Shown one piece after another: positions 20,251-59,486 of a stretch of DNA of 64,000 nt. Every line of letters begins with the position of its first letter. Within the stretch, counting starts at the first letter, position 1. Source of the stretch: Porphyridium purpureum. Its lineage: Eukaryota. The notes below the pieces were generated by a model, which saw only the letters and a list, made by a program, of their open reading frames with translations, was not told the DNA's origin and ran no database searches. The translations under genes were made by a program, and so were the position numbers. The stretch spans positions 744,001 through 808,000 of the forward strand of contig VRMN01000004.1 in assembly GCA_008690995.1 (NCBI GenBank). Reading direction: 5' to 3'.

Positions 20251-20513
20251 CCTAGCCATCGAGGCATTGTATCGGGTGTTTCTAGTAGCATATCGTCAGA
20301 TTCAGTGTATAAATGATGGCCTGGACAAAAGACTACATCATTCACTCTCGCACACCATGTGACGTTTTCCGGCGCACGCGCGAATCCCACCATCATTTCC
20401 ATGCTGTACATACTGAGTCGGTTCCTTTTACTCAGTCGAAAGTTTCCTAGAAGCTTGTACAAAAAGTAACTATGTGCACCGGAGCTAGCTAATTGAGCAG
20501 ACTATGCATGATC

Positions 20514-29251: not shown

Positions 29252-29326
29252 ACGACCCAGTGAGCGAATTTTGTATAAAAGAACCCTTGTCGCAAAACCC
29301 ATCCCCGCCGAGCGCCATGACATTAT

Positions 29327-35968: not shown

Positions 35969-36437
35969 GCAGGGCACGTCCGTGGTGTATCCGCGCCCCC
36001 TGCGTGCACGTCCTCGATGCAGTGAACGTCTCTGTTGTTGACACGCGTTGCCGAAGCAGGACAGTCCAGAACGCAGAGATGAGCAGAACGAGTCGGTGCT
36101 GTGTATGAATGAACATGTTGGAACCCTGTCCACCCCAGTGGCTTTCTAAAACGAATGGCTAAAATATATGTTGAATGTTTTGTGTGCGTTTTTGTGTGCA
36201 GGTGTGAGCCACGCTCCTCGTCTTGACCCTCGCGGACCTCTTCATCTGTCCGCGGCGCGACAGGTCCCCCACGCCTGACTGTCCGCATTAACCAGCAGAC
36301 CCACTGGTCGCACGTGCGCTGACGGTGAAAAGTAGGCGATTTGTCATGACGTGGAAACAAGTAGCGCCCCGGAATCACGTTGGGACGTCCGCGTTCCTCG
36401 GGAGGGCGGGGAGAAGGGCGCGGAGAGCAGAGGGAGA

Positions 36438-38765: not shown

Positions 38766-39229
38766 AGGTCACGTCATTGCAGTCCCACTTTTCATGTTCG
38801 CGTCTGTCAACGCATGAAAAACAAAAATGAGAACGCCGAGACGAAAGGTTCGTTTTCTGCCTGATGCAGGCGTAGCGCACGAAACAGTGTCCGGATGCAG
38901 CATCTTTGAATCTAGCCTTTTCGCGCGAGAACTCAAAGAGGGATCATTGCCGTACATTTGGTGGGAAAATAAAAAGTATTACAGACTCGAAAGGTGTGGG
39001 TAAAATGATTTTGCGAGTGACTGAAATCGCACACATAGTTGCTTTTTCTTCGTCCCGGTTGACGAGGAGTCGGCGGCGGAGTTTTCGTGCTCATCTTCAA
39101 TCCTCTGATGCAAGTCCCGCCGTTCCAATCGCAGAAAATGTAGCCCATCACGAGAAAAATGACCTCTGTATTGTGGTCTGGAGTATATTCGCGGTTACTC
39201 AAGTAGAGGCATAAATGCTTTTCGACAGA

Positions 39230-39661
39230 TCACTTGCTCGGCTTGACAACTGCCTGTGTCTTGCGAGAAGTTGTGAAATTCAGAATGCTGTTGCGCTTCT
39301 TGCGCTGCGAGAATTCCAGGTACTCGTCGAACTTGGTGCTGTGTACATGCGCAGGTAGAGGCGTAGCGCGGGTCCCCGGGTCACCCTTATTCGAATACTT
39401 CACGCGTATCGAGCTCGGACATGCCTCCAGCATCGTGGCGGTTGTCTCCTCGTCTTCTTCAAAATCGACGCACTCAAACGATCCCTTGCTGCTGGCTTTC
39501 TGGCTCAGCACCTTCCCAAAGTGACGCAGATTCTGTGCGCTCGTCACCTTTTTTAGGTTGAGAAACGAGGAGCTCGCGTTCATCCTGATCCCTCTTGGCG
39601 AGACCGCGGGCGAGCTGGCAAAGTTTTCGTTCAGTTTGTACTCGACATCGACACGCGACAT
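39230..39661 (-). CDS. Hypothetical Ser/Lys-rich protein (143 aa)
   Basis: ATG-initiated ORF with coding-like composition between the MLO and RPS7 genes; contains LKKVTSAQNL; no family recognised. Confidence 0.6.
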   Translation of the reverse strand: MSRVDVEYKLNENFASSPAVSPRGIRMNASSSFLNLKKVTSAQNLRHFGKVLSQKASSKGSFECVDFEEDEETTATMLEACPSSIRVKYSNKGDPGTRATPLPAHVHSTKFDEYLEFSQRKKRNSILNFTTSRKTQAVVKPSK

Positions 39662-40084
39662 GTTGCCGGGTTTCCAAACCGCTGCTAAAGGAGCAAGGAG
39701 GTCGGACGCTGCACGAGCTCGCGGCTATGTCCGACGTCAACGCCGAATGAGTGTCGAGGGCGCCAAGACTCTTCATCCCCTTTCCGACAGGAGCCCACCA
39801 GCACTGCGACGCATTCCAGCCCCGCCTTCCGGAAGCCTAGTTGGAAACACTGCAGTTGCGTACATCCATGACCCCGACAACCGCCTCACGATCCTTCACA
39901 CTACGTGCACGTTCTCCATCCATACACGCACATCAGTGCGTCGACACCCAACACCAGCGTATATCTGCAGTTTGCGTGTCACCGCACGTCCTCATCATCA
40001 TTCCGTCATCTCTGGCAAGGTCGACGTTATTGCGCTGGTGACCTGGCGACTTGATGTCTTGTTGCGTTGGTGAGATGGTGTCCT

Positions 40085-42514: not shown

Positions 42515-42791
42515 CAAAAGTAAAGTATTCTGAATAAGCGCATTCTTGCACAAGCGGACGCGCGCCGTTACGCTCTCTTCGTATCGTATGCCATAGCGCG
42601 CAGGTCCGAACTCTCGAACTGCTTCGCAAGCTATCGAGGATCTAGACTTGATCAACCACAGAAATTCTCATTTATTTCAACTCAATTTTCACACACATGG
42701 ACTCATTCTTCAAATAAACAAAGACTCGCCTAAGGAGAAATAGATGCCACACTCGTCATTCATCAATCTTCCTCAGACCTCCGGTCATCTA

Positions 42792-45700
42792 TCAGTAGCC
42801 GTAGCGTGCTGTCGTGAGGACCGGCCGAGCTCTCGGCTGGCCGAACGCAGGTTTGCTCGTGCCCATCGGACCAGGCGCTCGGGTACCGATTGGCCGCTGA
42901 CCGTACATTCCAGCCCCGCCGTTTCCATAGTAGGGGCCTGGTCCGGCAGCAACGCCACCGCCATACCCACCGTTGCCAATGTACCGACGCGCCAAGTTGC
43001 TCATTCCACCATACTGCGGCTCGTGCACATATCCATCGCCATATAGTGCCTGTTGATGATGCTGCTGCTGGTCGTAGCCATCGAACCCTTGCGGTTCGTA
43101 CGGAGACACTTGCGCATGAGGCGCGAAACCCGTGCGAGCACCATGCATTCCACCAACTGGGCCTGGTGCTCCAGCATACGGTGCGAAACCACCAGCTGTG
43201 CCTCGTCCGCCCAGGCCCATCACACCAACACCGCCGGCACCTCCGTACGTGCCCACCATCCCGCGGGGCCCACCCAGAGAAGCTTGCTGCTGCTGCTGCT
43301 GCTGGCGCGCACGCTGCAAAACGCTGATGTCAACACTGTCCTGCATGCGCACAAACGCATCCACAACCGCCGTGTGCGCAAAAGGACCAAAGTGCTCCAG
43401 TGTGAAGCGCTGCAAAAACATGCGAGCAAATTCGAACGCGTCATGTGGCGCGGGCAGAAAGCGGAACATCCCCCACATCCAGGCACTCAAGCGTCCTGGT
43501 GCGAGGCGTGCATGGTCAATCATATTATTCTGCAGCTCGTTCCAGTCCTGATCGGGGGTCTGCGCATCCACCACAGCGTCCAGCGGCAGCATGGGATCGG
43601 CACCGGATTGCACCAAATCATTCTTGAGGTACTCGAGCATAGCGCGCTGGTTTTCATCCAAAACCGCAGCGAAATCCTCGTAGCTCGAGTTATAGTACAC
43701 ATAGTTCACCGCGTACTCAAGCCGACTCACCTTCCACAAAACGGCGCGCAGATCTTCATCGGATGCAAATGACTCACTGATCCTGTGTACCACGTCGGCC
43801 ATGCTGATGAAACCAAACGCGACTTGCGTCTGCAGCGAGGCAAACATCGCTCTTAGCGGATCGAGCGCGCTCTTGTTGCCGTTCAGCTGATGCACCGTCC
43901 CCGCAGGAGACGAAGACGATGCCGCAGAAGCAAAGCCGTCAAACTTCGACGCAGCAAACTGTTCAAGCGTTCGTAAAGCCATCATCTCTCCGCCTGGTCC
44001 TGCGTCTGGATGCTCGCTGAAGGTAAGGTCAACGCCCGAGTCACTCAAAACAAGATCAAGCACCTCCGTGTTCTGTAGCCACGCTTCCGGGCCCCATTGC
44101 AGAATGGCAGCCGTGCTATTCAGGTTGGTGCTGCTGCTGTCGCGCATGAAGTCCCACTGATAGCCCAGAATTTCCGGTCTCAGCTTGCGGTTCTGAGCCT
44201 TGATCACCATGCTGGTCGAATCCAGGCGCTTCACAAAACCTCCGAGGGCAGCAAAGAACTTTTGGGCAAAGCCGTCAAACCGGTTGCGCACATTGCTGGT
44301 TGCATTGTTGCTGCCACTTCCAATGGCGTGATTGCCTACCACTTCGAGCGGCACGACAAGGCGAGACTCGACCTCAATCACGCAGCATCCGGCGTGTGAT
44401 GCCACACGCTTCACGGACGCGCGCGCCACACGTAAGTGAGAGCGATCCGTGACAACAGCCCATGCACGCGACGCGAAGCCTGTGATGTTAGTATTTTCAA
44501 GACCGACCACTGACGCACCCATCCCACCGCCTACCTGCTCGGACGGATCCACACGCAGCACAAAGCAAATATTCTGCTCCTTGAGTTGTCGTTCAACGTC
44601 TACAAGGCCTTGCAAGTAGTACAACACATGCGTCTTGCTGTACAACGCAAAACTGCTGAGATCAAGCACGGCGAGCACAACCAAAGGCAGACCAGCATTA
44701 TTAGCCAATACCTTGGCCACTTCAAGTGACTCGTTGTGGCGCACGCGCAGCGCAGATGTCATCCAGTACAACACGTACTCGCTTGAACCATTGTTGTCAT
44801 TCACCGAACGGCGTGGACCAAGGTCATTGAGCAATCGCACGCGCGACCGCTCTACACCACAATCTTCGAGAGCCGTCTTCACCAGGGTCTTCATCGTGGT
44901 CTTCTCAACCGCGCCATGCGTACCTTGCAGTTGCGGACGTGTCACAATCGCTGTCTGCGGTGCCACCAACATGCTCGCAAGCTTGAAAGATTCCACGATA
45001 TTCTTGTAGCATACGGCGTCCAACGCATCAATCATGATACGCTCATTCAAAGATAACGCCACCTGGAATGCCTTACTGGGATCGCGACTGTATTCGATGA
45101 TTTTCTGGCACCAGAAAGAGCGGTCGTGAGAGACATTTCGCCCAGTCTCCCGCAGCTTTTTCTGTACCTCGTTCCACTTGTCATCGTGTGTCTCGCCAAC
45201 TTCCCACTGATGCAGCGAGTAGTCGTAGTTCTTGCGCTTTTTGCCTGCGTCCTCAAGCGTCTTGCGCACCACTTGCGAAAGCGTGTTCTCGTACGTGTCA
45301 TATTTCTCGCAAAAGTGAGCAAAATTGTACGCTAGCTCACGGCGTGCCAGATTCTGCAAGAACACTGAAATATCTTCCTGTGATGGCGTCAGGATCCCCG
45401 CGTGACTATTGTCCGAGACAGGTACCACATTATTCGCAATTTCGAAAACTCGAACCATGATTTCAGACGCAGCAATAATGCCGAAGCACAAATAGGGCGA
45501 CAAATTGCTGCCATAATCAGCACGATTTGACTCGCCGAACTCCTGCGAGTGCTTTGCGTAGTCTTTGAGCTTGTGCTTCAGGAATTCCTCCAGCTTTACG
45601 CGAGCGGCATGTTCACCAGACTGCGTGCCGGCCGGTGGCCCGATCGACACATCCACGCGGTTCTTGGCGAGAACCTCCAATAGTGTGCTCTCGTTGTCAA

Positions 45701-48700
45701 GCCACTCTTGAGCGCTCCAGGCACTCCCTTTCATGAACGGATAAACCTTACCCTTGCCAGTTACATCAACATCGGCCAAGGCACCAGGTACCTTCACCGC
45801 CTGCTCTACGAGCGGCTTTGCGTAACGCCTGCACAAAGGAAGGAAGCGCTCATAGAACGAATCAAAGTCAGGCGCAGGACCGGAACACGCCTTTTCCAGC
45901 GGCACACTTAAGATACTTTCAACCTCAATCATCGCGCAGCCTGTTTCAAACGCGGTCTTCTTGACCATTTCTCCATTGGCCCGTAAATGGGCGCGGTCCG
46001 TGACCACGGCCCACGCGCGAGCCTCGAAGCCTTGGATACCCTCGAGCTCAGAACCAATCAGGTTGAGCGAAGTGGGAGACTCGGATGTCTCTTCGAATCT
46101 CATACAGAAGATCACGCCTTCGTCCCGTAGGTCCTTCTCTAGCTCAGCGAGCCCCTTCATCACAAAATTGATCTGTCGATAAGAACCACGTTGGAAATGA
46201 TTAAGGTTCACCAGCGCAAGAAATACGAGCGGAAGCGAGCTCATATTCGCAAGAGCTTTCGCTACTTCGAAGGCATCGTTGTGATGCTTGCGGAATGCGC
46301 AATGCGAAACGTACAGCACGTATTCGCCGCCAACCGAGTTGCCTTTGCCCTTGCGAACCTTGGCGCGTGCACCAAAGTCATTGAGCACGCGCACGCGTGT
46401 CTTATCAATACCACAACTATCCAGCGCATTCTTCAGGATGGTGCGAATAGGGTTCCGCTCAAACGTCTTGCCTAATTCACCAGACGTGAGGCACGCCAGA
46501 TTGAAGCACTCGGAGATATTCTTGTACCCCACAGGGTCAAGCGCATCAATCATGTACTTGTCGTTGAGATACACCGCAAGTCGATAGGCGTCCGACGGGC
46601 GGGACTCGTACTGAATCAGTTTCTCACACCAGTACACACGATCAGCCATGAACTCACGCCCGTGCGACAAAAGCTCCTGCTGGATCTCATTCCACACCAT
46701 ATCGTGTGTCTCGCCAAGCTCCCACTCCTCATCTGTGTAAATATATTTTTGCGGACGATTAGCTGCTGCCTGTTCAAGCGTCTCGCGCACCATCGGCGCT
46801 ACAGCTCCCTGGTAGCTGTCATACCCTTGCGTCTGGTAAACAAAGCAGTACGCCAACTCGCGACGGCACAGGTTTCGGAAGAAGGCAATAATATCGGCAT
46901 CTGATGCCTTGCTGTGCAGAACTTCAACGGCGACATGTACCACGGACAAGAAACCAGTACTGAAAAAGGGAGAGAGAAGCGAGCCATACTCGAGCCGGAG
47001 GGACGGGTCCGCTGCTTCCATGGTAGAACCATACCCAGGTAAGTTTTTCATGACAAAAGCATCCAAGTGCTCGCGAGCACGCAACTCGCCACCATAGTGA
47101 CCACTGGCTGGTGGCACAGTCACATCCAAACCATTCTGTTCGGCGACCTGCTTCATCACCGCTTCGTGTTGGCCGCCATCGACAAATGCAGAAAGCTCGG
47201 GCAACGCTGATCCATCCGCCAAGTCAACGGGACTGGCAAGCATGGAAAGCTCTTTCGGCATCATGCCATAGTCACGCAACTTGACACTTTGCTTGAGTAC
47301 ATCAGCGCCCACTTTGCATTCCAGGTCTGAAATTGGCTTCACATAAGAATTCAACACGGGGAAGAAGCGATAGAAAAACGCATCGACGACGTCCTCCATT
47401 ATACCCGCGGAAACCTCGAGCGGCACGAGCAGGCAGCTCTCAACCTCAACAACGGCACAGCGAGCTTCACGCGCGACGCGTGCTTCGACATCTCTGGCGC
47501 GACGCAAATATGCGCGGTCTGTCACAATAGCCCAAGCGTCCTCTGCAAACCCCTTTATGCCCTCTTTCTTGTCACCCAGGACGCTCAAGCCTGGTGCAGA
47601 GCCACTCGGCTCAACACGCAACTCAAAGCGCACACCTGCCTTGGTTAGGTCTGATTGAAGCTGCGCAAGACCCTGCAAATAGAACACAAGGTGACGCCAG
47701 CTTCCACTCTTGAACTGCTCGAAATCAAGCACGTACAAATACACCAGCGGCAACCCAGCCTCATTTGCGAGCGACTTTGCAATTTCAAAGGATTCGTTGT
47801 GCTGCGTGCGAGGCGCCAGAGAGCAATGATAAAGCACAAATTTGCCCTTATCGTTCGATCCTTCTTGGTTGACAAGTCGAACGCGAGATTCTTCAACCAA
47901 TGTTGGCTTTAGACATGAAAGAATCGTCTCCTTGAATGCTGATGAGTCAGTCTTGTTCTGGGTCTCACGAATGAGTACGGCCTCCATTTCGCACATCTGC
48001 ACAAAGCCCTCAGAGACGTTGCGATACCCTACGGCGTCCAGCGCATCGACCATGTACTTGTCATTCAGAGTCATGGCCAGGTAGTACGCGTTGCGGGGAT
48101 CGGACTCGTACTCGATGATCTTGTACAACCAGAAGAAGCGATCTTGCGCAATGTCGCGCCCACGGAAGATCAGCTCATGCTGCACACTGTTCCATCGCTT
48201 GTCGTGCGTCTCACCCTTTTCCCACTGCTCGAAAGTATACGCGTACCGTGGGGTTCGGTGCTTCGCCATCTCGCTCAGCGTACGCCGTGTTTCCTCAGGA
48301 ATTGCTGCCTCGTACACGTCGTATCCTTCCGGGTTATCCACCACAAAATGGAACGCCATCTCACGCCGTCCCAGATTCCGCAAATAGCTGTTAATGTCAT
48401 GCTCAGAGCGTCCTGACCGAACAATCTCGAGCAAAATATCGGACGCTGAAATAAACCCGTTGCACAAGTATGGCGACAGCAACGAGCCATATTCTGAGCG
48501 ATTATTGTCACCAAAACGACCTAGTTCCTCACCATAGCCACGCAGTTTACGCATGACAAACGCTGTCAGCAGCTTGCGTGCGGGTCCTTCACCACCAAGA
48601 TACGTTCCTGAGACAGGCGGCACATCGACCGACATCCCATTTTGTGTGAGTACCTCGTTCAGCGTCGCATCGTGGTGCAGCCAGTCCTTCGGCGCCCACT

Positions 48701-51700
48701 CCGCACCACCTGAGCTGGTGACACTAGGCTCAGATAGACTGCTCTTTCGTGCGGAACCTCCCGGAGCCAACTCGGAAGCATTAAGCCCCGCGCTCTCCAC
48801 ATTGCTCCACCGCCAACCCAGATGACCAAGTTCGAGTTCAGAGCCTGCCGCAACCATCACAGGGACATCGTTCGGCTTGCGCGCATACTCTCGCGCGAGC
48901 TGCGGGAATTGTTCGAGCCACTCTTTTTCGTCCGCATGCTTGTGCTGGCGCGCCGCCTTGATTGGGATAATGAGCCTACTCTCCACTTCAATCACCGCAC
49001 AACCGGCCTCGTTCACCACGTGTTCAACAGCAAGCTTGCCATAGCGCAGGTGTGGCGTGTCCGTGACGATCGCCCAAGCATAATTTTCGAACCCTTTGAC
49101 ATTATTCGCTGCGCAGCCGAGGACCGAGCCAGCCAAAACACCACCAAAGTCCTGTCGTGCGTCAAAGCGTACGCACAGCTTGATCCCGTCGCGCGCAAGC
49201 TGTGCGTGGAATTCTGACAAGCCTTCAAGCAGGAAAACGACGTGGCGCTTCGACCCGATTTTCATAACATTCAGGTCCACCGTATACAGTACGACAAGCG
49301 GTAGCTGCGCGAGGTTGGCAAGTGCCTTGGCAAGCTCGAGCGACTCGTTGTGATGTGCGCGGCATGTCGCAGTCGCCCAGTACAGAACGTACCGAGCAGT
49401 ACCACCCGACGACGACGTTGGCCGCACGCAGAGATCATTACGAAGCTGCACACGTGACGAGTGCAAGTTAACACTCTTGACTGCGTGCGACACGATGCTT
49501 TCCATGCGTGCACGGTCCGGCAGAGCGCGCGAAGTTGTAGAATTGAGTGCGGATGCAAACGTAAAGCAACTCGCTATATTGCTGTAGCTCAACGGATCCA
49601 GCGCGTCGACCATGTACTTGTCATTCAGCCGCATGGCAAGGCGAAATGCGTTCCGCGGGTCTTTCTCGTACTCAATGAGCTTCAGACACCAGAAGCTACG
49701 GTCCTGCGCAATGTCACGCCCTCGGTATCGCAATTCGTGCTGAATTGTATTCCAGCGGCTGTCGTGCGTTTGGCCCAGATCCCATTGCTCATCCGTGTAT
49801 GAGTAACGCTTACTCTCGTTGGCCAGCCGAAAGAGCTCCTTCTGAGCCTCAGCAGGAAGAGCGTGCTCAAATGTGTCATATCCCTCAGTATATCGCACAA
49901 AATTGAAGCCCTGTTCGCGGCGTGCCATGCTCTTCAGAAAAGCGTTTACGTCCGCCTCGGGTGCGCCCGAATTCTTAATCGCCACAACGATCTCGGCGGC
50001 GCTGACGAATCCATTGGTCAGGTACGGTGACAGCAAGGACCCATATTCCGAGCGGCGCTTCTCGCCAAGAATTTCCTGCGATGTAGAGTACTCATTCAGC
50101 TTCTTGCTCACAAAGACATTCAAAAGGCGGCGGCCGGACGCCTCCCCGCCGCGGTATATGCCTGAAACCGAGGACACCGTGACGTCGACTCCGCATTTTG
50201 CCAATAGATTATTCAGATGCGCCTGGTCTTCAATCCACTCATTCACCTTGAACAATTTCTTGCCCTCGTAGAAGTAGCCCAGATCCGCAAACAAGGAACC
50301 TGAGCCAATCACCGAGCTCGAATTCTCACCATCTGTGTCCGCTACAAGAACATCGCAAGATACATCGCAAGTCGTGACAGGGTATACCTTCGCGTAAGCC
50401 GGGAATATCTCCATAAAGCGCGCAAAGAAGGTTTGGAAATCATCTTCACGTTGCGAAGCCATAATTTCGACTGGAACCATAACCTTCGACTCGACTTCAA
50501 TCAGAGAGCAAGGAAGCTGCGTGGCCACAAACGCTTGCTTCTCATAACGGTGTTTCAAATGCGCACGGTCGGTGACAACCAGCGACGCCCCTTCCACAAA
50601 CCCGCGAACGCCAAGTTTGGTTGATCCCAGAAGACTAACAGCCTTCTCACCTTCAAGCAATTCGGAGCTTGGGTCCAGTCGAATTTCGACAGCGACGCCC
50701 ATACTGTTCAGGGCCGTCTGCATTTCAGTCATTCCCTCCAGCAGAAAGACCACATGCCGCCTTGAGCCTAGCTTGAAATGGGAAAGATCGAGTGCCACAA
50801 GGACCACGAGCGGAAGTCCAAGAGCATTGGCCGCTCCAATAGCCACTTGCAGGCCCGGATTATTGTGGCGCCGATGGCCAGTCTGCACCCAATACAATAC
50901 ATATTTTGTGTGATTTTCCATCAACGGAGCGCGGTCATTCAAAATGCGAATGAAATCACGAGAAACACCAGAACTTTCACATACCTCGGTCAAAAGCTTC
51001 TCCACTGCGGCCACGTTATGCTCCGCCGAGCTGCTGCTTGGCGGCGCCAACAAACCATTCTCCATCATCATCGCGTTCTTTGCACCCCTCCCGGCAGCGT
51101 CTTCGCCTATCACACTCGATGACGATATGAACGCATCGCCCGCGGTGTTACCACCGCTCACAATCGCGCCAATGTATTCAAAGCAGCGCTTGATATTACG
51201 CAGGCCGATTAGGTCAGCGTCAAGCATATACTTGTCATTCAGATATGTGGCGATGCGGAACGCGTCGCGCGGGTCTCGCTCATATTGAATGATAAGGTGG
51301 CACCACAGAGAGCGATCGTGCTGCATGTCCCGTCCGCGCATACGTAATTCGGACTGGATGGCGTTCCACTTGGCGTCGTGCGTCTTCGCGAGCTCCCACT
51401 CTTCAAGCGAGTAAGAATACTTGCCCTCCTGGTCGCGACAGCTGATGAGCGCTTCGTGCACGTCAGGCGCTACCAACCACTCGTAACTGTCGTACTCATC
51501 CGGGAAATAGTACGCAATAGCATACGCATATTCACGCATGCCAAGTGCTCGCGAAAAAGCCTCAAGATCCGCTTTCGGCGCGGTTGATTTTAGCACCTCA
51601 ACCAGAACTTCGACCGGAGATATGAATCCCTGACTCAAATAGGGTGAAAGCAAAGAGCCGAATTCAGATCGAGTACTGACGGCCACATCATGCAATTTCT

Positions 51701-54700
51701 TGTGGTAGTCACGAAGCTTGCGCGCAATAAAGGTCTGCAAAAGCTTCTTCGCACCTTGGTACCCGCCACGATACGAGCCGCTTACGACCGAAACCGATGA
51801 ATCAATACCATTCGCCTCAAGTACACTGTCTAGCACGCTCCCCTCCTCCTGTGAACCGGCCAACCAGTCAGCGGGGCCCCAGCTTGCAGTCACGCCATCC
51901 TCGTCCATGCAAAACCCGTACCGGAAAGAAGCATCTGCTGATCCACTTACACCTCCCCGTACCATGAGCGTCAGCACTGACGCGTTCGCGCTCAAAGATT
52001 TGACAAAGTGAGTGTACACGTCCATGAAAAAGTCGCTAAAGGCCTTCTCGTCTGGGAAGTCCTCCACTGCATCGATCTGGTCGCCAAGAAGAACATTCAG
52101 CGGCACAATCGTCTGCGACTCGACACCAATTAACGCACAACCGCATGCCTTGGACACGCGGTCGGTGACAAGCCGAAGCTGCCGCTCAAAAGGAACATCC
52201 GTCACGATGCACCAAGCATGACGCGCATAACCGGCAACTGAGCCATCCTCAAGGCCTAAGAGTGATACACTACCAACACCATCTTCGCATACTGGTTCAA
52301 TCGCCAAGTGGAAACTGCAACCCAAGGCCTTCATTTTCGCCTCCACCTCGGCTAGCCCTTCGAGCAAAAACACGACATGTCGCTTGGAGCGATTCTGGAA
52401 CGCATTCAAGTCAAGCACGCACACCACAAGCAGGGGTAGCTCGGCGTGGTTTGCAAACGCCTTGGCAAGTTCGAAAGCCGGGTTCTCGCTGTACCTGTGC
52501 GCGGACGACATCCAGTACAGCACATATTGACCGGCTCCACCGGCATGGACGCTTTGACGATGAACCAGCTCGTTGAGCAGGCTCAAGCGCTCTGGCTCGA
52601 CTCCTGTATCCGGCAGCAGGGATTCAATGATACCCAGCATCTCACCCGCCGCATCTGTGGTGGCAGTCTCCACGCGCGACGCGGACGCAAGTACTTGTTC
52701 AAAGCAATCCTGAATCGTGCGATAGCTCACTGGATCCAATGCGTCAATCATAAACTTATCATTCAGCTCGCTGGCGAGTCGATAGGCGTTCGCAGGGTCC
52801 TGCTCGTACTGCAAAATGCGCTTGGCCCAGTACTGTCGATCGTACAGCAGGTCCCGACCACGGAAAACAAGCTCGTGCTGAATTGTGTTCCACTTTTGAT
52901 CATGTGTTTCACCCGCCGCCCACTGTGCGTCCGTGTAGGAATAAGTGACTTGCCCTTGCTGGAGATGCAACCGTTTTTGCGCATTGAGCTCCTTAATTTG
53001 CTCAGGAGTGAACACTGCTTCAAACTGGCTATAGTTCGGAATATAGTTAACAAGATTGAACGCAAACTCGCGCTTGAGCAGCGAACGCAGAAAGGCTTCG
53101 ATATCAATTTGCGAAACGCCGGCGCGCGAAACTTCATAACCGACGTCGCGAGCGCTAATCATGCCGTAACTCACATACGGCGACAGAATAGAGCCAAACT
53201 CGGAACGGTTCATCTCGGTTTCCTCGTCCACTTTGCTTGCGTAACCTTGGAGCTTGCGCTGCAAAAAAACGGAAAGGAGGCGCCGCGCCGATGTCTCTCC
53301 ACCTCTGTACGCGCCTGTCACAACCGAAACGTTGGGGTCGACGCCGTTCTCACCCAAAATTTTGGCAAAGTGGACCTCATTGTCAAGCCACTCGCGCGCG
53401 CCCCATTGCCACTGCTCCATAAATTCCCATCGGAAGCCCATCAGCTCTACGTCCACGTCACTAAATACTTGGTGCTTCACGGTGAGCGGGGTCAGTGGCT
53501 TCAAGTACTGCCTGATTTCGGTCTTATTTGCCGCATAGAATGAATCAAAGGTCGGAACATAGGCATCAGCCGCATCTTCAACTGGAATGATCAGACGGGA
53601 TTCAACGTCAATGCATGCGCAGCCGCACAAAGCCGCAATGCGACTTTCAACTGCCTGCTCATACTCGAGGTGGGCGCGATCCGTCACAATGCACCAAGCC
53701 GCGGACGCAAAACCTAAAACACCATCCTCTTCGGAGCCCAACACACTCACGCCCCCTAACCCTGCTTCACCAAACCGGCTCGGGTCCACGCGCACGCAAA
53801 GCTTGATTCCCATGTCAGAAAGCGATGCTTTCAGCTCCGCAAGCCCTTCCAACAAAAAGGTGACATGTCGGCGCGAGCCGCGACGATAATAGTGGAGATC
53901 GATCACGTACAGATAAATCAGAGGCAGCTTGGCCGCGTTTGCCAACAATTTTGCCACTTCGAGGCTTTCGTTCTCCTGGGCACGACACGCACGATTCGCA
54001 ACGTAAAGTACATATTGCGCGTCACCTACGCCGCTGTCATTGACGCCTTCGCCTCCATTGCTGCGCGGGCCCAGCTCGTTGATCAGGCGAATCTTATTCA
54101 ACGACACACCAGTGCTCTCTTGCAGCTGCGAGTTCAAAATCTCGTGGATCACCGAAGGGTCGCTTGTGGACACACGGGACGCGTCATTATTCGTCGCCGT
54201 GTTGCCAACTTTGGCCTGCTGGAAGCACAAGATCAAATTGTAGTACGAGCACGCGTCGCCGGCATCGATCATGTACTTGTCGTTTAAGTAGCTCATCAGG
54301 CGATACGAATTGTCAGGGTCCGACTCGTACTCAATCAGTTTCTGTGCCCAATAGCGGCGATCCTGCAAAATATCGCGGCCCTTGAAAAACAGTTCGTGCT
54401 GCACTGTGTTCCAGCGTTGGTCGTGCGTTGTGCCTCGCTCCCAGGCAATGTCCGAATAGGCGTACTTTTTCTTCTTTGAGCTCTTGAGCTGATTGTACGC
54501 CTCGTTCGAGATGAGGCTGCCAAGATGTGTCAAGTCATCCAAAAAGTAAATCATGTTGAAAGCGTGCTCGCGCTTGCAAATATTGCGCAGATATGCTGTC
54601 CGGTCTTCGGCACCCTTGCCCGAGCGCAACACACTGATCGCCGCCTCTGCAGGCGAGATAAATCCATGAGTTAAGTATGGAGACAGCAAGGAGCCGTACT

Positions 54701-57197
54701 CTCTACGATTTGTTTCGCCGTGTACTTCGGATGCCTTCCCGTAGCCGTACAGCACACGCGAGAGAAAAGTGGTTAACAATCGCTTAGCGGTTGCTTCGCC
54801 GCCCTTAAACGACGTACTCAGGACAGGCACCGTGATGTCAATATCAGATTCGGACAGCGCCGCATCCAGTTTGGCTTCCCCATCAAACCACATGCGCGCC
54901 GACCAGGCACCTTCCTTTTCAAAGGACCATTTGAACCCAAGGCCCGCCAGCTCTTTCACATCACTGAACGGTTTCAGGTCGAGCTGCTGAGGCGGCAAGC
55001 CCTTTGCAAATTTCTTAATGTTTGCGTTGAAACGCTCAAAGAACACACTGAAGTCCGGTTCAAGTTTGCTGACTGGATTTTGCATGACTTCCAGCGGAAT
55101 CAGTAGCTTCGACTCTACGTCCAGCATCGCTACGCCGCATTCCAACGCCACCTTTTCCGTCAGGCGACGTCGAGGAAGCATGTGTGGCCGGTCCGTCACG
55201 ACAATGTACGCGTCTTGCACAAAACCCTTTGTGCCATCGCTGGAGCCAAGAAGTGAAACGCCGCTCTGATCTTTCGGCTCGATCCGGAACTGGAACGAGA
55301 TCCCGTCGAGTGTCAGCTGCTCTTCCAGCTCCACGATGCCTTCGAGATGAAAGACAACGTGGCGCTTGCTGTGGATCTCCCAGGATTCGAGACTCATCAC
55401 GTCAATCACAACGAGCGGCAGGCCAGACTGGAAAGCCAGCGCCTTGGCCAGCTCGAGCGTATCGTTGTGGGTCGTGCGAAATGCGGTTTGCGCCCAGTAA
55501 AGCACATACCTGCCCTCCTGGTTGAGGCCAAATTCATTCACTGTACGCACACGCGAGTCCTCCACCCCGCATGACTTGAGCGCGTTCCAAAGGGTGCTTT
55601 CAAGACGGCGCGCCGCGCCGGCGTCTTTTGTTGGCGCCAGTGGTGCAGCACGGCGCATCACGCCGCTGCCGTCATCCTCAAGAAGTTCGGCGGACTGGCG
55701 CGACATGTGCAGATTCACTCGCTCCGCGTAGGCAACGAAGGACTCGGCAATGCAATGATAACTGACAGGATCGACACCTTCAAGCATAAACAGTGCGTTT
55801 AAGCGAATGCAGCGCTCCCAGGCCACATCCGGTCGCCTTTCCATTTCAATGAGCGCCTGCACCCAAACTTGTCGATCCGACTTGAGGTCGCGACCTAATC
55901 GCATCATCTCCTGGTGAAAGGTGTTCCATTCGGTATTGGGCGTTTCGCCCTTTTCGTACTGAATGTCCGGTACTTCCACTGCGCTTGAGCTCGCTGAAGC
56001 AGCCGCTTCCAGCACAGGTTGGAGCTCTGTCGGTATCATGGCCTCGTACCGCTCGTAATTGGGCACAAAGTTAACCAGGTGGAAGCCCATTTCACGACGT
56101 GCAAGGTTCTTCAAGTATGCGGTGGTGTCTTGCAGACTACGACCCGAATTCAGAACCTTACTCGCCACTTCAGGGGTGGCGATGAACCCGTAGCATAGGT
56201 ACGCTGATAAAAGCGAACCATATTCAACTCTGTTGTTCTCGTCGTTAACTTCAAATGCACGCGCATATGCCTTGAGTTTGCACGCGATGAACGTGGAGAG
56301 CAGCTTGCGCGCCTCCTTCTCACCGCCGCTAGGCGACGTCTTGGGCACGAGCGGGATGTCCGTTCGGATACCGCTCATGTCGAGGATCTGCACGAGAATC
56401 TCTGGGTTATTGAGCCAGTCCACCGCGCCCCATGTCTCATCTTCGTCTGATTCCTTCATAAAGTCAAAGATAAGGCCAAAGCCGTCGGCTTCGTCCATGA
56501 GCTCTTCGGGTGCCGTCACATTGACGTCCTGATGCGGCAGCAGACGCGCATAGTCTGGCGCCAGCGACAAGAAACGATCCTGGAATGCGGCGCGGTCCTT
56601 GATAAAGTCGGTTGATAGCTCCTCCACAGGCACCAGCAGGTGTGTCTCGACGTCGATCACAGAGCAGCCCGCCTCCGCGGCCACGCGAGATACTGTCTCA
56701 ATATTTGCGCGCATATGGGGCCGATCGGTCACGATCGCCCACGCGCGAGATGCAAAGCCCGTCACGCCGTCCTCCTTCGAGCCCACCACGCTCAGTGCCG
56801 GAGGTCCTTGCACGGGATCCATACGCACACACGCCCCAATACCCTGCTCGAGGAGCGACTCCTCGAATTCTGCGATGCCATGCATCAGGAACTGCACATG
56901 ACGCAGCGATGCTTTGGTAAAGTTGCGCAGGTCGACTGTTGCCAGCACAATGAGCGGCAGGTCGAGCTCATTGGCGAGCGCAATGCTGAGCTCGAGCGCC
57001 TCGTTGTGCTGTGTGCGAAACGAATCCATCGTCCAGTAAAGAACATACTTGCTGCCCTCGGACTCGCCATTGTACCCAGCCGCGACATACTCGGCCACGG
57101 TCGCGCGCGCGTCATCCTCATTCAACCGCCGCACGCGCGTTGCCTCAATGCCCGACACCTCGATCGCCACATCCAGCGGCGACGCGTCACTCGTCAT
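42792..57197 (-). CDS. Giant (4801 aa) protein with nine tandem class II photolyase-like domains and a Q/G/Y/P-rich tail
   Basis: One uninterrupted 14.4-kb ORF. Each unit of about 500-540 aa has YVLYW...R..HN.(A/S)L, RHxxFxLEGL, IVTD, GGE..A, LSPYL..G.IS, RE, THD..WN..Q.EL, R..W..K and LNDKY..D..DP, which is the class II CPD photolyase motif order. Confidence 0.93.
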   Translation of the reverse strand: MTSDASPLDVAIEVSGIEATRVRRLNEDDARATVAEYVAAGYNGESEGSKYVLYWTMDSFRTQHNEALELSIALANELDLPLIVLATVDLRNFTKASLRHVQFLMHGIAEFEESLLEQGIGACVRMDPVQGPPALSVVGSKEDGVTGFASRAWAIVTDRPHMRANIETVSRVAAEAGCSVIDVETHLLVPVEELSTDFIKDRAAFQDRFLSLAPDYARLLPHQDVNVTAPEELMDEADGFGLIFDFMKESDEDETWGAVDWLNNPEILVQILDMSGIRTDIPLVPKTSPSGGEKEARKLLSTFIACKLKAYARAFEVNDENNRVEYGSLLSAYLCYGFIATPEVASKVLNSGRSLQDTTAYLKNLARREMGFHLVNFVPNYERYEAMIPTELQPVLEAAASASSSAVEVPDIQYEKGETPNTEWNTFHQEMMRLGRDLKSDRQVWVQALIEMERRPDVAWERCIRLNALFMLEGVDPVSYHCIAESFVAYAERVNLHMSRQSAELLEDDGSGVMRRAAPLAPTKDAGAARRLESTLWNALKSCGVEDSRVRTVNEFGLNQEGRYVLYWAQTAFRTTHNDTLELAKALAFQSGLPLVVIDVMSLESWEIHSKRHVVFHLEGIVELEEQLTLDGISFQFRIEPKDQSGVSLLGSSDGTKGFVQDAYIVVTDRPHMLPRRRLTEKVALECGVAMLDVESKLLIPLEVMQNPVSKLEPDFSVFFERFNANIKKFAKGLPPQQLDLKPFSDVKELAGLGFKWSFEKEGAWSARMWFDGEAKLDAALSESDIDITVPVLSTSFKGGEATAKRLLTTFLSRVLYGYGKASEVHGETNRREYGSLLSPYLTHGFISPAEAAISVLRSGKGAEDRTAYLRNICKREHAFNMIYFLDDLTHLGSLISNEAYNQLKSSKKKKYAYSDIAWERGTTHDQRWNTVQHELFFKGRDILQDRRYWAQKLIEYESDPDNSYRLMSYLNDKYMIDAGDACSYYNLILCFQQAKVGNTATNNDASRVSTSDPSVIHEILNSQLQESTGVSLNKIRLINELGPRSNGGEGVNDSGVGDAQYVLYVANRACRAQENESLEVAKLLANAAKLPLIYLYVIDLHYYRRGSRRHVTFLLEGLAELKASLSDMGIKLCVRVDPSRFGEAGLGGVSVLGSEEDGVLGFASAAWCIVTDRAHLEYEQAVESRIAALCGCACIDVESRLIIPVEDAADAYVPTFDSFYAANKTEIRQYLKPLTPLTVKHQVFSDVDVELMGFRWEFMEQWQWGAREWLDNEVHFAKILGENGVDPNVSVVTGAYRGGETSARRLLSVFLQRKLQGYASKVDEETEMNRSEFGSILSPYVSYGMISARDVGYEVSRAGVSQIDIEAFLRSLLKREFAFNLVNYIPNYSQFEAVFTPEQIKELNAQKRLHLQQGQVTYSYTDAQWAAGETHDQKWNTIQHELVFRGRDLLYDRQYWAKRILQYEQDPANAYRLASELNDKFMIDALDPVSYRTIQDCFEQVLASASRVETATTDAAGEMLGIIESLLPDTGVEPERLSLLNELVHRQSVHAGGAGQYVLYWMSSAHRYSENPAFELAKAFANHAELPLLVVCVLDLNAFQNRSKRHVVFLLEGLAEVEAKMKALGCSFHLAIEPVCEDGVGSVSLLGLEDGSVAGYARHAWCIVTDVPFERQLRLVTDRVSKACGCALIGVESQTIVPLNVLLGDQIDAVEDFPDEKAFSDFFMDVYTHFVKSLSANASVLTLMVRGGVSGSADASFRYGFCMDEDGVTASWGPADWLAGSQEEGSVLDSVLEANGIDSSVSVVSGSYRGGYQGAKKLLQTFIARKLRDYHKKLHDVAVSTRSEFGSLLSPYLSQGFISPVEVLVEVLKSTAPKADLEAFSRALGMREYAYAIAYYFPDEYDSYEWLVAPDVHEALISCRDQEGKYSYSLEEWELAKTHDAKWNAIQSELRMRGRDMQHDRSLWCHLIIQYERDPRDAFRIATYLNDKYMLDADLIGLRNIKRCFEYIGAIVSGGNTAGDAFISSSSVIGEDAAGRGAKNAMMMENGLLAPPSSSSAEHNVAAVEKLLTEVCESSGVSRDFIRILNDRAPLMENHTKYVLYWVQTGHRRHNNPGLQVAIGAANALGLPLVVLVALDLSHFKLGSRRHVVFLLEGMTEMQTALNSMGVAVEIRLDPSSELLEGEKAVSLLGSTKLGVRGFVEGASLVVTDRAHLKHRYEKQAFVATQLPCSLIEVESKVMVPVEIMASQREDDFQTFFARFMEIFPAYAKVYPVTTCDVSCDVLVADTDGENSSSVIGSGSLFADLGYFYEGKKLFKVNEWIEDQAHLNNLLAKCGVDVTVSSVSGIYRGGEASGRRLLNVFVSKKLNEYSTSQEILGEKRRSEYGSLLSPYLTNGFVSAAEIVVAIKNSGAPEADVNAFLKSMARREQGFNFVRYTEGYDTFEHALPAEAQKELFRLANESKRYSYTDEQWDLGQTHDSRWNTIQHELRYRGRDIAQDRSFWCLKLIEYEKDPRNAFRLAMRLNDKYMVDALDPLSYSNIASCFTFASALNSTTSRALPDRARMESIVSHAVKSVNLHSSRVQLRNDLCVRPTSSSGGTARYVLYWATATCRAHHNESLELAKALANLAQLPLVVLYTVDLNVMKIGSKRHVVFLLEGLSEFHAQLARDGIKLCVRFDARQDFGGVLAGSVLGCAANNVKGFENYAWAIVTDTPHLRYGKLAVEHVVNEAGCAVIEVESRLIIPIKAARQHKHADEKEWLEQFPQLAREYARKPNDVPVMVAAGSELELGHLGWRWSNVESAGLNASELAPGGSARKSSLSEPSVTSSGGAEWAPKDWLHHDATLNEVLTQNGMSVDVPPVSGTYLGGEGPARKLLTAFVMRKLRGYGEELGRFGDNNRSEYGSLLSPYLCNGFISASDILLEIVRSGRSEHDINSYLRNLGRREMAFHFVVDNPEGYDVYEAAIPEETRRTLSEMAKHRTPRYAYTFEQWEKGETHDKRWNSVQHELIFRGRDIAQDRFFWLYKIIEYESDPRNAYYLAMTLNDKYMVDALDAVGYRNVSEGFVQMCEMEAVLIRETQNKTDSSAFKETILSCLKPTLVEESRVRLVNQEGSNDKGKFVLYHCSLAPRTQHNESFEIAKSLANEAGLPLVYLYVLDFEQFKSGSWRHLVFYLQGLAQLQSDLTKAGVRFELRVEPSGSAPGLSVLGDKKEGIKGFAEDAWAIVTDRAYLRRARDVEARVAREARCAVVEVESCLLVPLEVSAGIMEDVVDAFFYRFFPVLNSYVKPISDLECKVGADVLKQSVKLRDYGMMPKELSMLASPVDLADGSALPELSAFVDGGQHEAVMKQVAEQNGLDVTVPPASGHYGGELRAREHLDAFVMKNLPGYGSTMEAADPSLRLEYGSLLSPFFSTGFLSVVHVAVEVLHSKASDADIIAFFRNLCRRELAYCFVYQTQGYDSYQGAVAPMVRETLEQAAANRPQKYIYTDEEWELGETHDMVWNEIQQELLSHGREFMADRVYWCEKLIQYESRPSDAYRLAVYLNDKYMIDALDPVGYKNISECFNLACLTSGELGKTFERNPIRTILKNALDSCGIDKTRVRVLNDFGARAKVRKGKGNSVGGEYVLYVSHCAFRKHHNDAFEVAKALANMSSLPLVFLALVNLNHFQRGSYRQINFVMKGLAELEKDLRDEGVIFCMRFEETSESPTSLNLIGSELEGIQGFEARAWAVVTDRAHLRANGEMVKKTAFETGCAMIEVESILSVPLEKACSGPAPDFDSFYERFLPLCRRYAKPLVEQAVKVPGALADVDVTGKGKVYPFMKGSAWSAQEWLDNESTLLEVLAKNRVDVSIGPPAGTQSGEHAARVKLEEFLKHKLKDYAKHSQEFGESNRADYGSNLSPYLCFGIIAASEIMVRVFEIANNVVPVSDNSHAGILTPSQEDISVFLQNLARRELAYNFAHFCEKYDTYENTLSQVVRKTLEDAGKKRKNYDYSLHQWEVGETHDDKWNEVQKKLRETGRNVSHDRSFWCQKIIEYSRDPSKAFQVALSLNERIMIDALDAVCYKNIVESFKLASMLVAPQTAIVTRPQLQGTHGAVEKTTMKTLVKTALEDCGVERSRVRLLNDLGPRRSVNDNNGSSEYVLYWMTSALRVRHNESLEVAKVLANNAGLPLVVLAVLDLSSFALYSKTHVLYYLQGLVDVERQLKEQNICFVLRVDPSEQVGGGMGASVVGLENTNITGFASRAWAVVTDRSHLRVARASVKRVASHAGCCVIEVESRLVVPLEVVGNHAIGSGSNNATSNVRNRFDGFAQKFFAALGGFVKRLDSTSMVIKAQNRKLRPEILGYQWDFMRDSSSTNLNSTAAILQWGPEAWLQNTEVLDLVLSDSGVDLTFSEHPDAGPGGEMMALRTLEQFAASKFDGFASAASSSSPAGTVHQLNGNKSALDPLRAMFASLQTQVAFGFISMADVVHRISESFASDEDLRAVLWKVSRLEYAVNYVYYNSSYEDFAAVLDENQRAMLEYLKNDLVQSGADPMLPLDAVVDAQTPDQDWNELQNNMIDHARLAPGRLSAWMWGMFRFLPAPHDAFEFARMFLQRFTLEHFGPFAHTAVVDAFVRMQDSVDISVLQRARQQQQQQQASLGGPRGMVGTYGGAGGVGVMGLGGRGTAGGFAPYAGAPGPVGGMHGARTGFAPHAQVSPYEPQGFDGYDQQQHHQQALYGDGYVHEPQYGGMSNLARRYIGNGGYGGGVAAGPGPYYGNGGAGMYGQRPIGTRAPGPMGTSKPAFGQPRARPVLTTARYGY
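43340..57150 (-). repeat. Nine tandem protein-domain repeats (about 1.5 kb each)
   Basis: (Y/F)VLY motifs start near 57047, 55508, 54014, 52526, 50903, 49391, 47840, 46322 and 44777, giving spacings of 1488-1623 nt. The units are highly diverged at DNA level. Confidence 0.92.
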
Positions 57198-59486
57198 CGC
57201 GCCTAAAGTTCTTCAATTCTTGCGCTCCCCTCCTCCAATGCGAGCTCTAGGCACCTCACTTCCACAACGCACTCGCGCAGGTACATGCACATGCACTCAC
57301 ATTCAGATGCGCCGACGTCCACTCCCTCCGCATGCCGATCACGAACCGACACGACCCGAACCCCCCAATCGCGCACAGCAGACCTTCACAGCTCACACCC
57401 ACTGCCCGGGCCGTGCACGCGCGAATGCACTCTCGCCCACAATCCCCCTCCCCCCCTTGATAACCCCTCCGGCTGCCCTACATGCATGCACTCCTCTCCC
57501 TCTCCGTCTCGCTCTTTCCTTCCTCCTCCCCACTGCTCGCTCTCTCCACGCTCCTTTTTTCCTCCCCCCAGTTCACGCTCGCCGCGCTTGGTGTTGTTGT
57601 TCGTGTTGCTGCAGTGGTGGCAACGCCTATCAAAATACCCCAATTCCATTACGAACCCCGCCTCATTGGAGCCACCTCCGGCAGTGTGACAGTCACACTC
57701 AGTGCTGCATCATGCCACTCTCACTACTCGCTCATACCAAAACACCCCCTTCCCGCTCATGTTTGCCCCCTCCAGCAACAACACACAACAACACACACTC
57801 TCTGTTGCCTGTCTAACATGAGATGTTCCCTTGTTGTGCACGTATCTAAACGCATACACAATAAGCGCATCACGTCATCAACACACAGTTTCGGACGACT
57901 GTCGGCTTTTTTCCGATTTTGTCGCTGGAGAATGAGGGGAAGAGCACACGAACGGCCGTGTGAATGAACGTGTTTCGCGCTTACGCGCTCAGATATTCGT
58001 TTCATTTGGGGCGCGTTTGGAAGATGGAAGCTGCAGCTCGTACAGCAGGTACAGCAGGGACAGCGAGCACCGCCCTAAGTTCAGGTACTGCCGCAAAAAC
58101 CGCACTGTACCTTCGTGATCGAGCGCGCGCGGGTTCGGCGACGCTGTACACCCGATGAAGGTCAACGCATGCGCCGCTGGTCGCTGGTCGCTGGTCGCTG
58201 TTGGTTTGTGTGCGTGATGGCGTGGAGCGGCGACTCGCACGATGCAGCGTCTGTGGATATTGCCGTACTTGAGCAGACGTGCTAGCTGTTTGCTGCCGTC
58301 AAAAAACACAAAGGATGACGCAGTGTCGATACTTGTTCGGCACGAGCGTGGGGCTCGATTTCGTGGATGTTGCTTCAATGTTCTACTCAACCAGATCGGG
58401 CGTATCGGCCAAAAGTGGATGTCTCGGACGTCGGTGTCTCCCTGCTTCGTACGAGTTTGCCAGTTGACCACTCGACACACAACAAAAGCACTATCCCTTA
58501 CCGCCTCATTTCCGCCGTAGCCTTCTTGCGGTGCCGCGTACACGTGCTCAAACTCGAGTCACACCCGCCCAAGTCAGGGGCACACGAGCCACGCCCGCCC
58601 GTCGCGCTCAAAATACACACGCGAGGCCCACGCGCAGCCCGAAATCGGCGTGCGCTGGATATCGTTTTCCAGGGTTATCCACCTCGTCTTCACGAAGCGT
58701 GACGTCGCTTTTCCTTCCCTCCTTTTTTTTCGTACAAGGCAACGACGGAGGAGCGTTTTGCTTTGTGGAACGCGCGCACAGATTCAAGCGTGGTCGCCGA
58801 CGAGACGCGCACATGATCTGTGGTGCTTGTGACTACAGACCAGGACACAAGGAAGTGATCTGTTTCAAATGGCACCTGAAAAATTCAAACCGTGTCGAAG
58901 CTCTGAAGTCCCAGCTGCCAATGAGGAAAAGCGCGCATGTGCGTGGGAGGTACAGTTGAGGTTGTGGTTACGGTTTACGCCCACGTTGGTGTCTCGTGTA
59001 AAGCGTGTCGCCCCCAAGTGTGTGTGGGTTACGGGGTTGGGAAGGGGCGGGCGGGATAATGGAAAGGAGAAGAGATAGAGAGTGAGAGGGAGAGGGACGG
59101 GCGGGAAGGATTGAGACAAGGCTTGTACTGCAGCGGTCGCAGTAAGTGTTCACGCAGGTCCAGGCGTGGCGCGTGGCGTGGCGCTCCTTCGTGAAGGGGC
59201 GCGGTATTTGAAATCTGTCACCGGTGAAGAATCTAGCGGCGTTTGAAAGTCACAAGGCGGAACGGAGGGTTTTGCCGTCGTCGTTATTGGACACACCTCC
59301 GCCGCTCTCTCGTCTTGGTGGTTCTCGCTTTCCTTCTCGCTTTCTGTTTCTCTTTGGCGTTGGGAGGATTCGAACACGGTGCGCACATTTTACGCGGGGG
59401 CAAAGGCATTAGTAGTGGCTTCCAGGGGGCTACATCGCGATAGGTCGAAAAAGTGCCGGTGGTAACGTGCGAGATCAGCTGGCAAT

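What the first reader, a model, noticed from the sequence alone, without database searches (positions are those of the whole stretch)
44950..55760. Repeats keep the FAD-pocket motifs but have lost the CPD-lesion-binding machinery
The canonical class II C-terminus, from memory, is HGYMRMYWAKKILEW...LNDRYxLDGRDPNGYxGxxWSxGGVHDRxWxERxxFGKIRYM. Repeats 2-8 retain the Arg of MRMYW (as DRxYW, DRxFW or DRxLW), the flavin-N5 Asn and salt-bridge Asp (LNDKYMID) and two electron-transfer Trps (THDxxWN, and the Trp of that Arg motif). They replace the distal Trp of ILEW with Tyr (LIEYE, IIQYE) and lack the lesion-stacking Met and the Trp after DPNGY. They also lack the acidic EE before xxxRRE, and each unit ends before the HDR...FGKIRYM DNA-binding segment. 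The same losses in every unit point to a change of function. Inference: a flavin-binding, repair-dead, cryptochrome-like protein derived independently from the class II branch.
Basis: partly seen in the sequence, partly recalled or inferred. Interest (0 to 1): 0.85.

Follow-up and report, generated by a model that had tools for sequence, protein, structure and literature searches.

The report
Nine-domain repair-dead photolyase of red algae
A red alga transcribes one 4,801-residue protein made of nine copies of a DNA-repair enzyme (class II photolyase) that have all lost the residues that grip UV-damaged DNA, while seven keep the flavin pocket, so it is likely a blue-light-reactive flavoprotein with a new job, from an undescribed red-algal subfamily.

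Summary
The region lies in one intron-free, transcribed ORF (42792-57197, minus strand, 4,801 aa) with nine class II photolyase-like units and a Gly/Tyr/Arg-rich tail. Three other Porphyridiales-type proteins share the nine-unit layout. In units 2-8 of the four proteins, lesion- and bubble-binding residues match in 0 of 252 cells (controls 976/1125), flavin-pocket residues in 193 of 196 (controls 833/875). Unit 9 keeps the fold but loses the flavin residues (7/35), so their retention elsewhere points to flavin binding, not folding. The two retained Trps survive even in unit 9 and prove little. Single-unit relatives, including Cyanidioschyzon merolae BAM80384.1, share the same losses, so loss of repair came before the tandem array: one old event, not nine. 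The 3' read depth is 4-5 times that of the neighbouring ribosomal-protein gene. Best reading: a repair-dead flavoprotein from the class II branch, likely photoreducible through Trp-Trp-Tyr, acting as an abundant light-switched scaffold (0.5). Flavin binding and photochemistry are inferred, untested. No description was found in ten literature searches.

The parts
42792..57197 (-). Single ORF, 4,801 aa, about 535 kDa, pI 5.5; nine photolyase-like units and a tail; no introns
   Evidence: no splice joints in RNA reads
42652..57454 (-). Transcript extent: poly(A) at about 42652; RNA contigs reach 57312 (X1) and 57454 (X7)
55593..57197 (-). Unit 1 (aa 1-535), partly degenerate: keeps R378, W381, W360; Y345, H356 lost, 388 is Met; N403 kept in 2 of 4 orthologues
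54099..55592 (-). Unit 2 (aa 536-1033): flavin residues kept, lesion residues lost, Tyr at 388
52611..54098 (-). Unit 3 (aa 1034-1529), same pattern
50988..52610 (-). Unit 4 (aa 1530-2070), same pattern; a single-unit gene of P. aerugineum (P0007) groups with it
49476..50987 (-). Unit 5 (aa 2071-2574), same pattern
47925..49475 (-). Unit 6 (aa 2575-3091), same pattern; predicted class II photolyase fold
46407..47924 (-). Unit 7 (aa 3092-3597), same pattern
44862..46406 (-). Unit 8 (aa 3598-4112), same pattern
43248..44861 (-). Unit 9 (aa 4113-4650): fold residues kept, flavin residues lost (no R378, N403, S268); likely flavin-free
42795..43247 (-). Low-complexity tail, 151 aa, Gly 27%, Ala 11%, Pro 10%, Tyr 9%, Gln 7%, Arg 6%, net +5; a tail of like make-up ends all five long proteins

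Best explanation
The gene encodes nine tandem class II photolyase-like units that have lost the DNA-lesion and bubble-binding residues; units 2-8 likely bind FAD and are predicted to be photoreduced by blue light, so that the protein would act as an abundant light-switched scaffold and not as a repair enzyme. Steps: (shown) one spliceless mRNA, nine units, conserved layout, class II fold in the models, loss of lesion residues, retention of flavin residues. (Inferred) FAD sits in units 2-8; excited FAD takes an electron along W381-W360-Y388, with Y345 as a further donor, giving a long-lived flavin/tyrosyl radical pair. (Inferred, weakest) the redox change alters surfaces that replaced the DNA-binding face; the acidic units bind proteins, not DNA; degenerate units 1 and 9 cap the array; the Gly/Tyr/Arg tail with seven sensor units gives multivalent assembly like a cryptochrome photobody.
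For: Lesion/bubble set (R164, R256, E301, M379, W421, D428, R429, W431, R441; roles from PMC6126647): 0/252 in units 2-8 of four proteins, 3/45 in five single-unit relatives, 976/1125 in 125 controls. Flavin set (R378, N403 from PMC12082625; D409 as the salt-bridge Asp and Y252, S265, S268, D412 recalled): 193/196, 33/35 and 833/875; in unit-9-type rows 7/35 while 29 other conserved columns stay at 116/145. Y345 28/28 and H356 28/28 in units 2-8, both lost in units 1 and 9 of the four proteins; position 388 Tyr 25, Phe 3 of 28. In MmCPDII W388F slows photoreduction only about 2-fold, W381F blocks it, and Y345 is an electron donor (PMC5885780). Fold: Z 38.2, rmsd 2.5 A over 413 residues to MmCPDII, class I at Z 29.1; a model from derived sequences alone also hits MmCPDII first, E 1e-22. 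Nine units in P0003, P0004, P0005, grouped by position with full support. Stranded RNA over the whole ORF; 3' depth 780 and 469 against 186 and 90 for RPS7 and 27 and 17 for the 5.5-kb UGGT gene (two runs, one study). 25 of 34 listed variants in the ORF are synonymous, 23% expected. Unit net charge -2 to -31, controls median +2.
Against: No flavin binding, photochemistry, partner or location was measured. W360 and W381 are kept in degenerate unit 9, so they are structural as well. Near-invariant K383 (124/125), N414 (109/125) and H374 (107/125) around the flavin/adenine site are lost, G410 is Ala, and position 375 is variable and often bulky; the pocket may hold FAD differently or weakly. Phe at 388 in 3 of 28 units breaks the Tyr step. 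In MmCPDII W388F the radical-pair yield falls from 55% to about 4%. A transcript above a ribosomal-protein mRNA is odd for a signalling receptor. The structural alignment of unit 6 runs to MmCPDII residue 447-448, so the unit's last helix and low-confidence linker lie where the bubble loop lies; I read this as replacement, not retention, but only end points are given.
Confidence: 0.5

Rival explanations
1. FAD-binding bulk photoredox or photoprotective protein: seven flavins per chain absorb blue/UV-A light or pass electrons to a small molecule or partner enzyme; no signalling.
For: Same flavin-residue retention; high transcript level; copy-number gain raises chromophore per chain; the emptied lesion pocket could take another substrate, with new conserved residues R372, D377, M407-equivalent and an R-x-x-Y-G motif before S265.
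Against: Lesion-pocket positions are variable, not reshaped to one new residue (379: S7, V7, F5, R4 of 28); single-unit relatives exist without amplification; the tail and capping units are not needed for bulk absorption.
Confidence: 0.2
2. Light-independent scaffold or assembly factor that keeps FAD, or only the pocket, as a structural ligand, as trypanosome mt-SAF35 uses a photolyase fold in mitoribosome assembly.
For: Unit 9 shows that the fold is kept without flavin residues; precedent mt-SAF35 (PMC8784144; 7pua_Ff is a weak profile hit, E 0.018); abundant mRNA; low-complexity basic tail could bind RNA.
Against: N403, the redox-sensing Asn, and the donors Y345 and Y/F388 are kept together in units 2-8 and single-unit relatives and lost together in the end units, which a purely structural role would not need.
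Confidence: 0.22
3. Still a photolyase with changed substrate use (single-stranded DNA, RNA or a multi-site DNA scanner).
For: Class II fold and full redox triad; R305/R306 kept; basic tail could tether nucleic acid.
Against: 45 of 48 derived rows lack all six best-conserved lesion/bubble residues and 3 lack five (4 rows are partial, gaps counted as lacking); 113 of 125 controls have all six and none lacks more than four; W421 is mostly Glu/Asp; units are acidic.
Confidence: 0.05
4. Assembly artefact or decaying gene.
For: Very long ORF of repeats.
Against: Units are only 28-42% identical; same layout in three independent records; a 14,098-base RNA contig and continuous stranded reads; synonymous excess.
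Confidence: 0.01

Closest known systems
Class II CPD photolyase (MmCPDII, PDB 2xry/2xrz; rice 3umv; TIGR00591)
   Same: Two-domain fold (Z 38.2); class II placement of N403, R378-D409, W381, W360, Y345.
   Different: No M379, W421, E301, R164, R256, N257 or bubble loop D428/R429/W431/R441; W388 is Tyr; TIGR00591 161 bits against cut-off 550 (control P0012 529); nine tandem units and a tail.
Plant and animal cryptochromes
   Same: Works like: repair-dead photolyase fold with flavin pocket and a low-complexity C-terminal extension; lesion Met and Trp also replaced in plant CRY (V, Y; table in PMC7560933).
   Different: Those use the class I/(6-4)-type Trp triad and come from other branches; Z only 26-27 here; none known to me (recalled) is a covalent multimer.
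PPL/PHR2 (Arabidopsis GERALT)
   Same: C-terminally shortened photolyase-family protein lacking substrate residues, with a non-repair role; present in red algae (bioRxiv 2024.08.16.608208, passages).
   Different: CRY-DASH-derived, single domain; here the flavin core is complete up to D412 and class II type.
Trypanosoma mt-SAF35 (PDB 7pua chain Ff)
   Same: Photolyase homologue reused as a structural factor.
   Different: Only E 0.018 over about 60 profile positions; mitochondrial, single copy.
Cyanidioschyzon merolae BAM80384.1 'similar to DNA photolyase'
   Same: Same clade and same losses, single unit.
   Different: Keeps W328 and has long inserts; not among the six PHR accessions listed in bioRxiv 2021.05.23.445365; no characterisation found.

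Membership tests
Class II CPD photolyase | Photolyase two-domain fold closest to class II | tested here: met
   (predicted models)
Class II CPD photolyase | Redox triad R378, D409, N403 | tested here: met
   units 2-8 of four proteins 27/28, 28/28, 28/28; not met in unit 9
Class II CPD photolyase | Trp triad W381-W360-W388 plus Y345 | tested here: not met
   W388 is Tyr 25, Phe 3 of 28; the other three 28/28
Class II CPD photolyase | CPD pocket M379, W421, E/Q301, R164, R256 | tested here: not met
   roles from PMC6126647
Class II CPD photolyase | Bubble-intruding loop D428, R429, W431, R441 | tested here: not met
   motifs absent from all ten derived proteins scanned; TIGR00591 match stops at 411-421 of 453 in four of six derived rows and earlier or unresolved in the rest
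Class II CPD photolyase | Light-driven CPD repair | not testable with these tools
   needs assay
Cryptochrome (functional definition) | Binds FAD | tested here: inconclusive
   residues kept with an internal control; no binding measured; ligand not scored
Cryptochrome (functional definition) | No DNA repair | tested here: inconclusive
   strongly implied by sequence, no assay
Cryptochrome (functional definition) | Light-dependent or clock signalling through partners | not testable with these tools
   no partner, location or mutant data
Plant CRY, animal CRY, CRY-DASH, PPL/PHR2 clades | Sequence membership | tested here: not met
   TIGR02765 29 bits (cut-off 317), TIGR02766 20 bits (cut-off 604) against 161 for class II; best cryptochrome chain E 1e-5 against 1e-54
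Class II CPD photolyase | Nested inside class II in a rooted tree | tested here: inconclusive
   derived rows form one side of a long branch, support 100, but no class I outgroup was included; nested or sister cannot be told

The most novel reading that the evidence does not exclude
Red algae made a cryptochrome of their own from the class II photolyase branch before Cyanidiophyceae split off, with a Trp-Trp-Tyr-Tyr electron path, and some lineages strung it into a covalent nine-unit 'pre-built photobody' with seven flavin sensors, two blind caps and a condensing tail: a blue-light receptor of red algae that current photoreceptor inventories miss.
Probability: 0.35. Interest if true: 0.9.

Novelty: new variant of a known kind. 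Interest (0 to 1): 0.72.

Why it matters
Known cryptochromes come from the class I/III, (6-4) and DASH branches (recalled; consistent with passages). A repair-dead, flavin-keeping subfamily from the class II branch would be a further independent origin, with a different electron path. Red-algal light sensing is poorly explained, and these genes are annotated as ordinary photolyases. The question is directly testable: C. merolae has a single-unit member and CRISPR tools, and single units of about 500 aa can be expressed. The nine-unit chain with graded decay (units 1 and 9) is also a natural series for which residues flavin binding and photoreduction need.

Tried and rejected
No genome is held for this window, so I could not check whether the organism keeps a normal class II photolyase elsewhere. 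Packing of neighbouring units: the two-unit AlphaFold model gave pTM 0.52 with a low-confidence linker from a 5-row alignment, and the complex job for units 2 and 3 with FAD gave no answer (score 0.00, alignments not used, FAD not scored); neither is evidence for or against. Alignment A3 was mis-registered between repeats and was not used. The third homologue search was crowded out and gave two uninformative hits. A metagenome scan with a motif pattern gave 4 loci, all 99.7-100% identical to the C. merolae protein, no shared neighbours with the window. The ESM Atlas returned only generic photolyase clusters. Absence of Pfam FAD_binding_7 was rejected as evidence, since controls P0012 and P0031 lack it too. 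W305 was rejected as a marker (Arg in 113/125 controls). Order of unit duplications: the two trees disagree (5+6; 2+5), so none is claimed. No signal or transit-like hydrophobic N-terminus and one marginal hydrophobic window, inside a predicted beta strand region (crude scan). Antenna (8-HDF) residues: H272, F273, R411 are changed, but their role is recalled only; one search gave nothing. Earlier scan notes: none. Kiontke 2011 and 2014, the rice structure paper, and two red-algal genome papers were not held; the supplement of PMC9498864 could not be read; Asimgil and Kavakli 2012 was not read. Any of these may list members of this clade.

Full report
What is there. The coordinates fall inside one ORF on the minus strand, 42792-57197, 4,801 aa. 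Its neighbours (RPS7, a WD40 protein, UGGT, an ARM protein) are eukaryotic and unspliced. Pfam finds nine PF00875 stretches; a profile of the units finds nine matches in one frame and none elsewhere in the window. Units are about 500 aa and 28-42% identical to each other; a 151-aa Gly/Ala/Pro/Tyr/Gln/Arg tail follows.

It is a real, expressed gene. Two stranded raw-read runs of one study cover the ORF in every bin on the coding strand, with no splice joints and poly(A) at about 42652; an RNA contig of 14,098 bases spans 43215-57312. Depth rises to the 3' end (780 and 469), against 186 and 90 for RPS7 and 27 and 17 for the 3' bin of the 5.5-kb UGGT gene; two shorter transcripts in 20001-40000 reach similar or higher depth. 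Of 40 variants listed (of 184), 34 lie in the ORF and 25 are synonymous against 23% expected (the list is the best-supported subset).

Relatives. Full-length homologues of 4,593, 4,567 and 4,512 aa are from Porphyridium aerugineum (P0003/P0006), an unnamed record (P0004) and Timspurckia oligopyrenoides (P0005), 56-57% identical to the window protein, each with nine units and a similar tail. P0001 is an N-terminally incomplete relative at 40% with four units, the last of unit-9 type. I infer that the window is a Porphyridium species. The full profile search also ranked single-unit proteins far above ordinary class II enzymes: P0007 (P. aerugineum), P0008, P0009, P0014 (transcripts, organism not given), P0010/P0159 (Cyanidioschyzon merolae BAM80384.1), P0011, P0049, P0054 (unnamed; the last two stop before the last helices) and the fragment P0067. 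In both trees all derived rows lie on one side of a long, fully supported branch, and units group by position. So the nine-unit layout is older than the Porphyridium-Timspurckia split, and the subfamily is as old as the split from Cyanidioschyzon. The trees have no class I outgroup; class II ancestry rests on sequence (E 1.4e-54 against 6e-6 for the next class), on the class II position of N403, W360, W381 and Y345, and on fold.

Fold. Unit 6 models at pLDDT 90, pTM 0.90 (46 of 59 rows were class II controls, which biases it) and matches MmCPDII at Z 38.2, rmsd 2.5 A, 413 residues, class I at Z 29.1. A model of units 2-3 from five derived rows only (pLDDT 79) also hits MmCPDII first. The unit ends in one long helix (481-505) followed by a low-confidence linker; the aligner carries it to MmCPDII 447-448, end points only.

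Residue test. Controls are 125 class II-like proteins from the top 150 (of 140 non-derived candidates, 14 dropped for length outside 400-600 aa, one for a mis-called C-terminus); they are presumed, not assayed, photolyases. Lesion and bubble residues are taken from PMC6126647 (part 3 of the text and passages); R378 and N403 from passages of PMC12082625; the donor chain from PMC5885780 (passages and section 20) and PMC11725880 (passages); Y252, S265, S268, D409 and D412 as flavin contacts are recalled. Lesion/bubble set: controls 976/1125, units 2-8 of four proteins 0/252, five single-unit proteins 3/45. Flavin set: 833/875, 193/196, 33/35; unit 1 24/28; unit-9 type 7/35, where 29 other conserved columns stay at 116/145. 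Of 69 columns conserved in at least 85% of controls, 38 are kept in the derived set; the 21 clearly lost are mostly the DNA face, the deleted C-terminal segment and, by inference, what packs on it. Against a normal FAD site: K383, N414 and H374 are lost and 375 varies. W360 and W381 persist in unit 9, so they are also structural; Y345 and H356 are 28/28 in units 2-8 and lost in units 1 and 9 of the four proteins; 388 is Tyr in 25 and Phe in 3 of 28.

Mechanism. Shown: layout, expression, conservation, loss of the lesion machinery, retention of flavin residues beyond what the fold needs. Inferred: FAD in units 2-8 (about 0.8); photoreduction through W381-W360-Y388/Y345 (about 0.65), plausible because MmCPDII without W388 still photoreduces at half rate with a longer-lived tyrosyl pair, though at low yield; output by protein binding and multivalent assembly (about 0.5 overall), suggested by acidic units, the basic Tyr/Arg/Gly tail and the high mRNA level. 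Rivals: light-independent scaffold (0.22), bulk photoredox or screening protein (0.2), altered photolyase (0.05), artefact (0.01).

Comparison and novelty. It is of class II descent but fails the class II membership tests for lesion binding; it works like a cryptochrome by inference but belongs to no named cryptochrome clade. Ten paper searches, including the C. merolae accessions, found no description of the subfamily or of tandem photolyase units. Passages of PMC9498864 mention unassigned red-algal members, placed near plant CRY or DASH, not class II (supplement unreadable); PMC4564169 lists only CRY-DASH for Rhodophyta (table passage); PMC12558739, PMC7560933 and PMC13769073 (passages) do not mention it. 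BAM80384 is not among six C. merolae PHR accessions in bioRxiv 2021.05.23.445365; PHR6 is not listed there, and I infer from PMC10252272 (passage) that it is a CRY-DASH gene. Most subscription papers are outside the library, so a mention may exist.

Verdict. Observation confirmed; interpretation partly supported, with the loss of repair moved back to a single ancestral red-algal gene. New variant of a known kind; interest 0.72.

Noticed in passing
window 35618-35968 (+), transcript about 35490-36188: The most highly covered transcript in 20001-59500 (depth about 1,565 and 802) encodes a 116-aa protein with a weak Pfam match to dormancy/auxin-associated proteins (PF05564, E 0.027, below cut-off).
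   Followed up: partly
window 36351-38765 (+): 804-aa protein with a weak Mlo match (E 2.9e-5, 23 bits, cut-off 24) fused to C-terminal EF-hands: an MLO-like channel with its own calcium-binding domain; antisense reads at its 3' end.
   Followed up: no
P0007 (P. aerugineum): Single-unit gene that groups inside the unit-4 clade, so one unit of the array was copied out as a free gene.
   Followed up: partly
P0001: More distant multi-unit relative whose three intact-type units group with each other, not with particular window units, while its last unit groups with unit 9: separate expansion or homogenisation.
   Followed up: partly
window 42795-42810 and ends of P0001, P0003-P0005: All five long proteins end in Tyr or Tyr-Arg, three with an Arg-Tyr pair in the last five residues, despite unalignable tails; possible terminal binding motif.
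   Followed up: no
window 27437-29251 (+): 604-aa ORF with a glycolipid transfer protein domain only in residues 390-524; the rest has no Pfam match.
   Followed up: no
all units, linker between the two domains (e.g. window unit 3, aa 225-245): A subfamily-specific insert with a conserved Gly and Trp (100% and 86% of 35 rows), an extra Trp at the F350 position (35/35) and an insert before the second Rossmann half; extra Trps could be further donors or UV absorbers.
   Followed up: no
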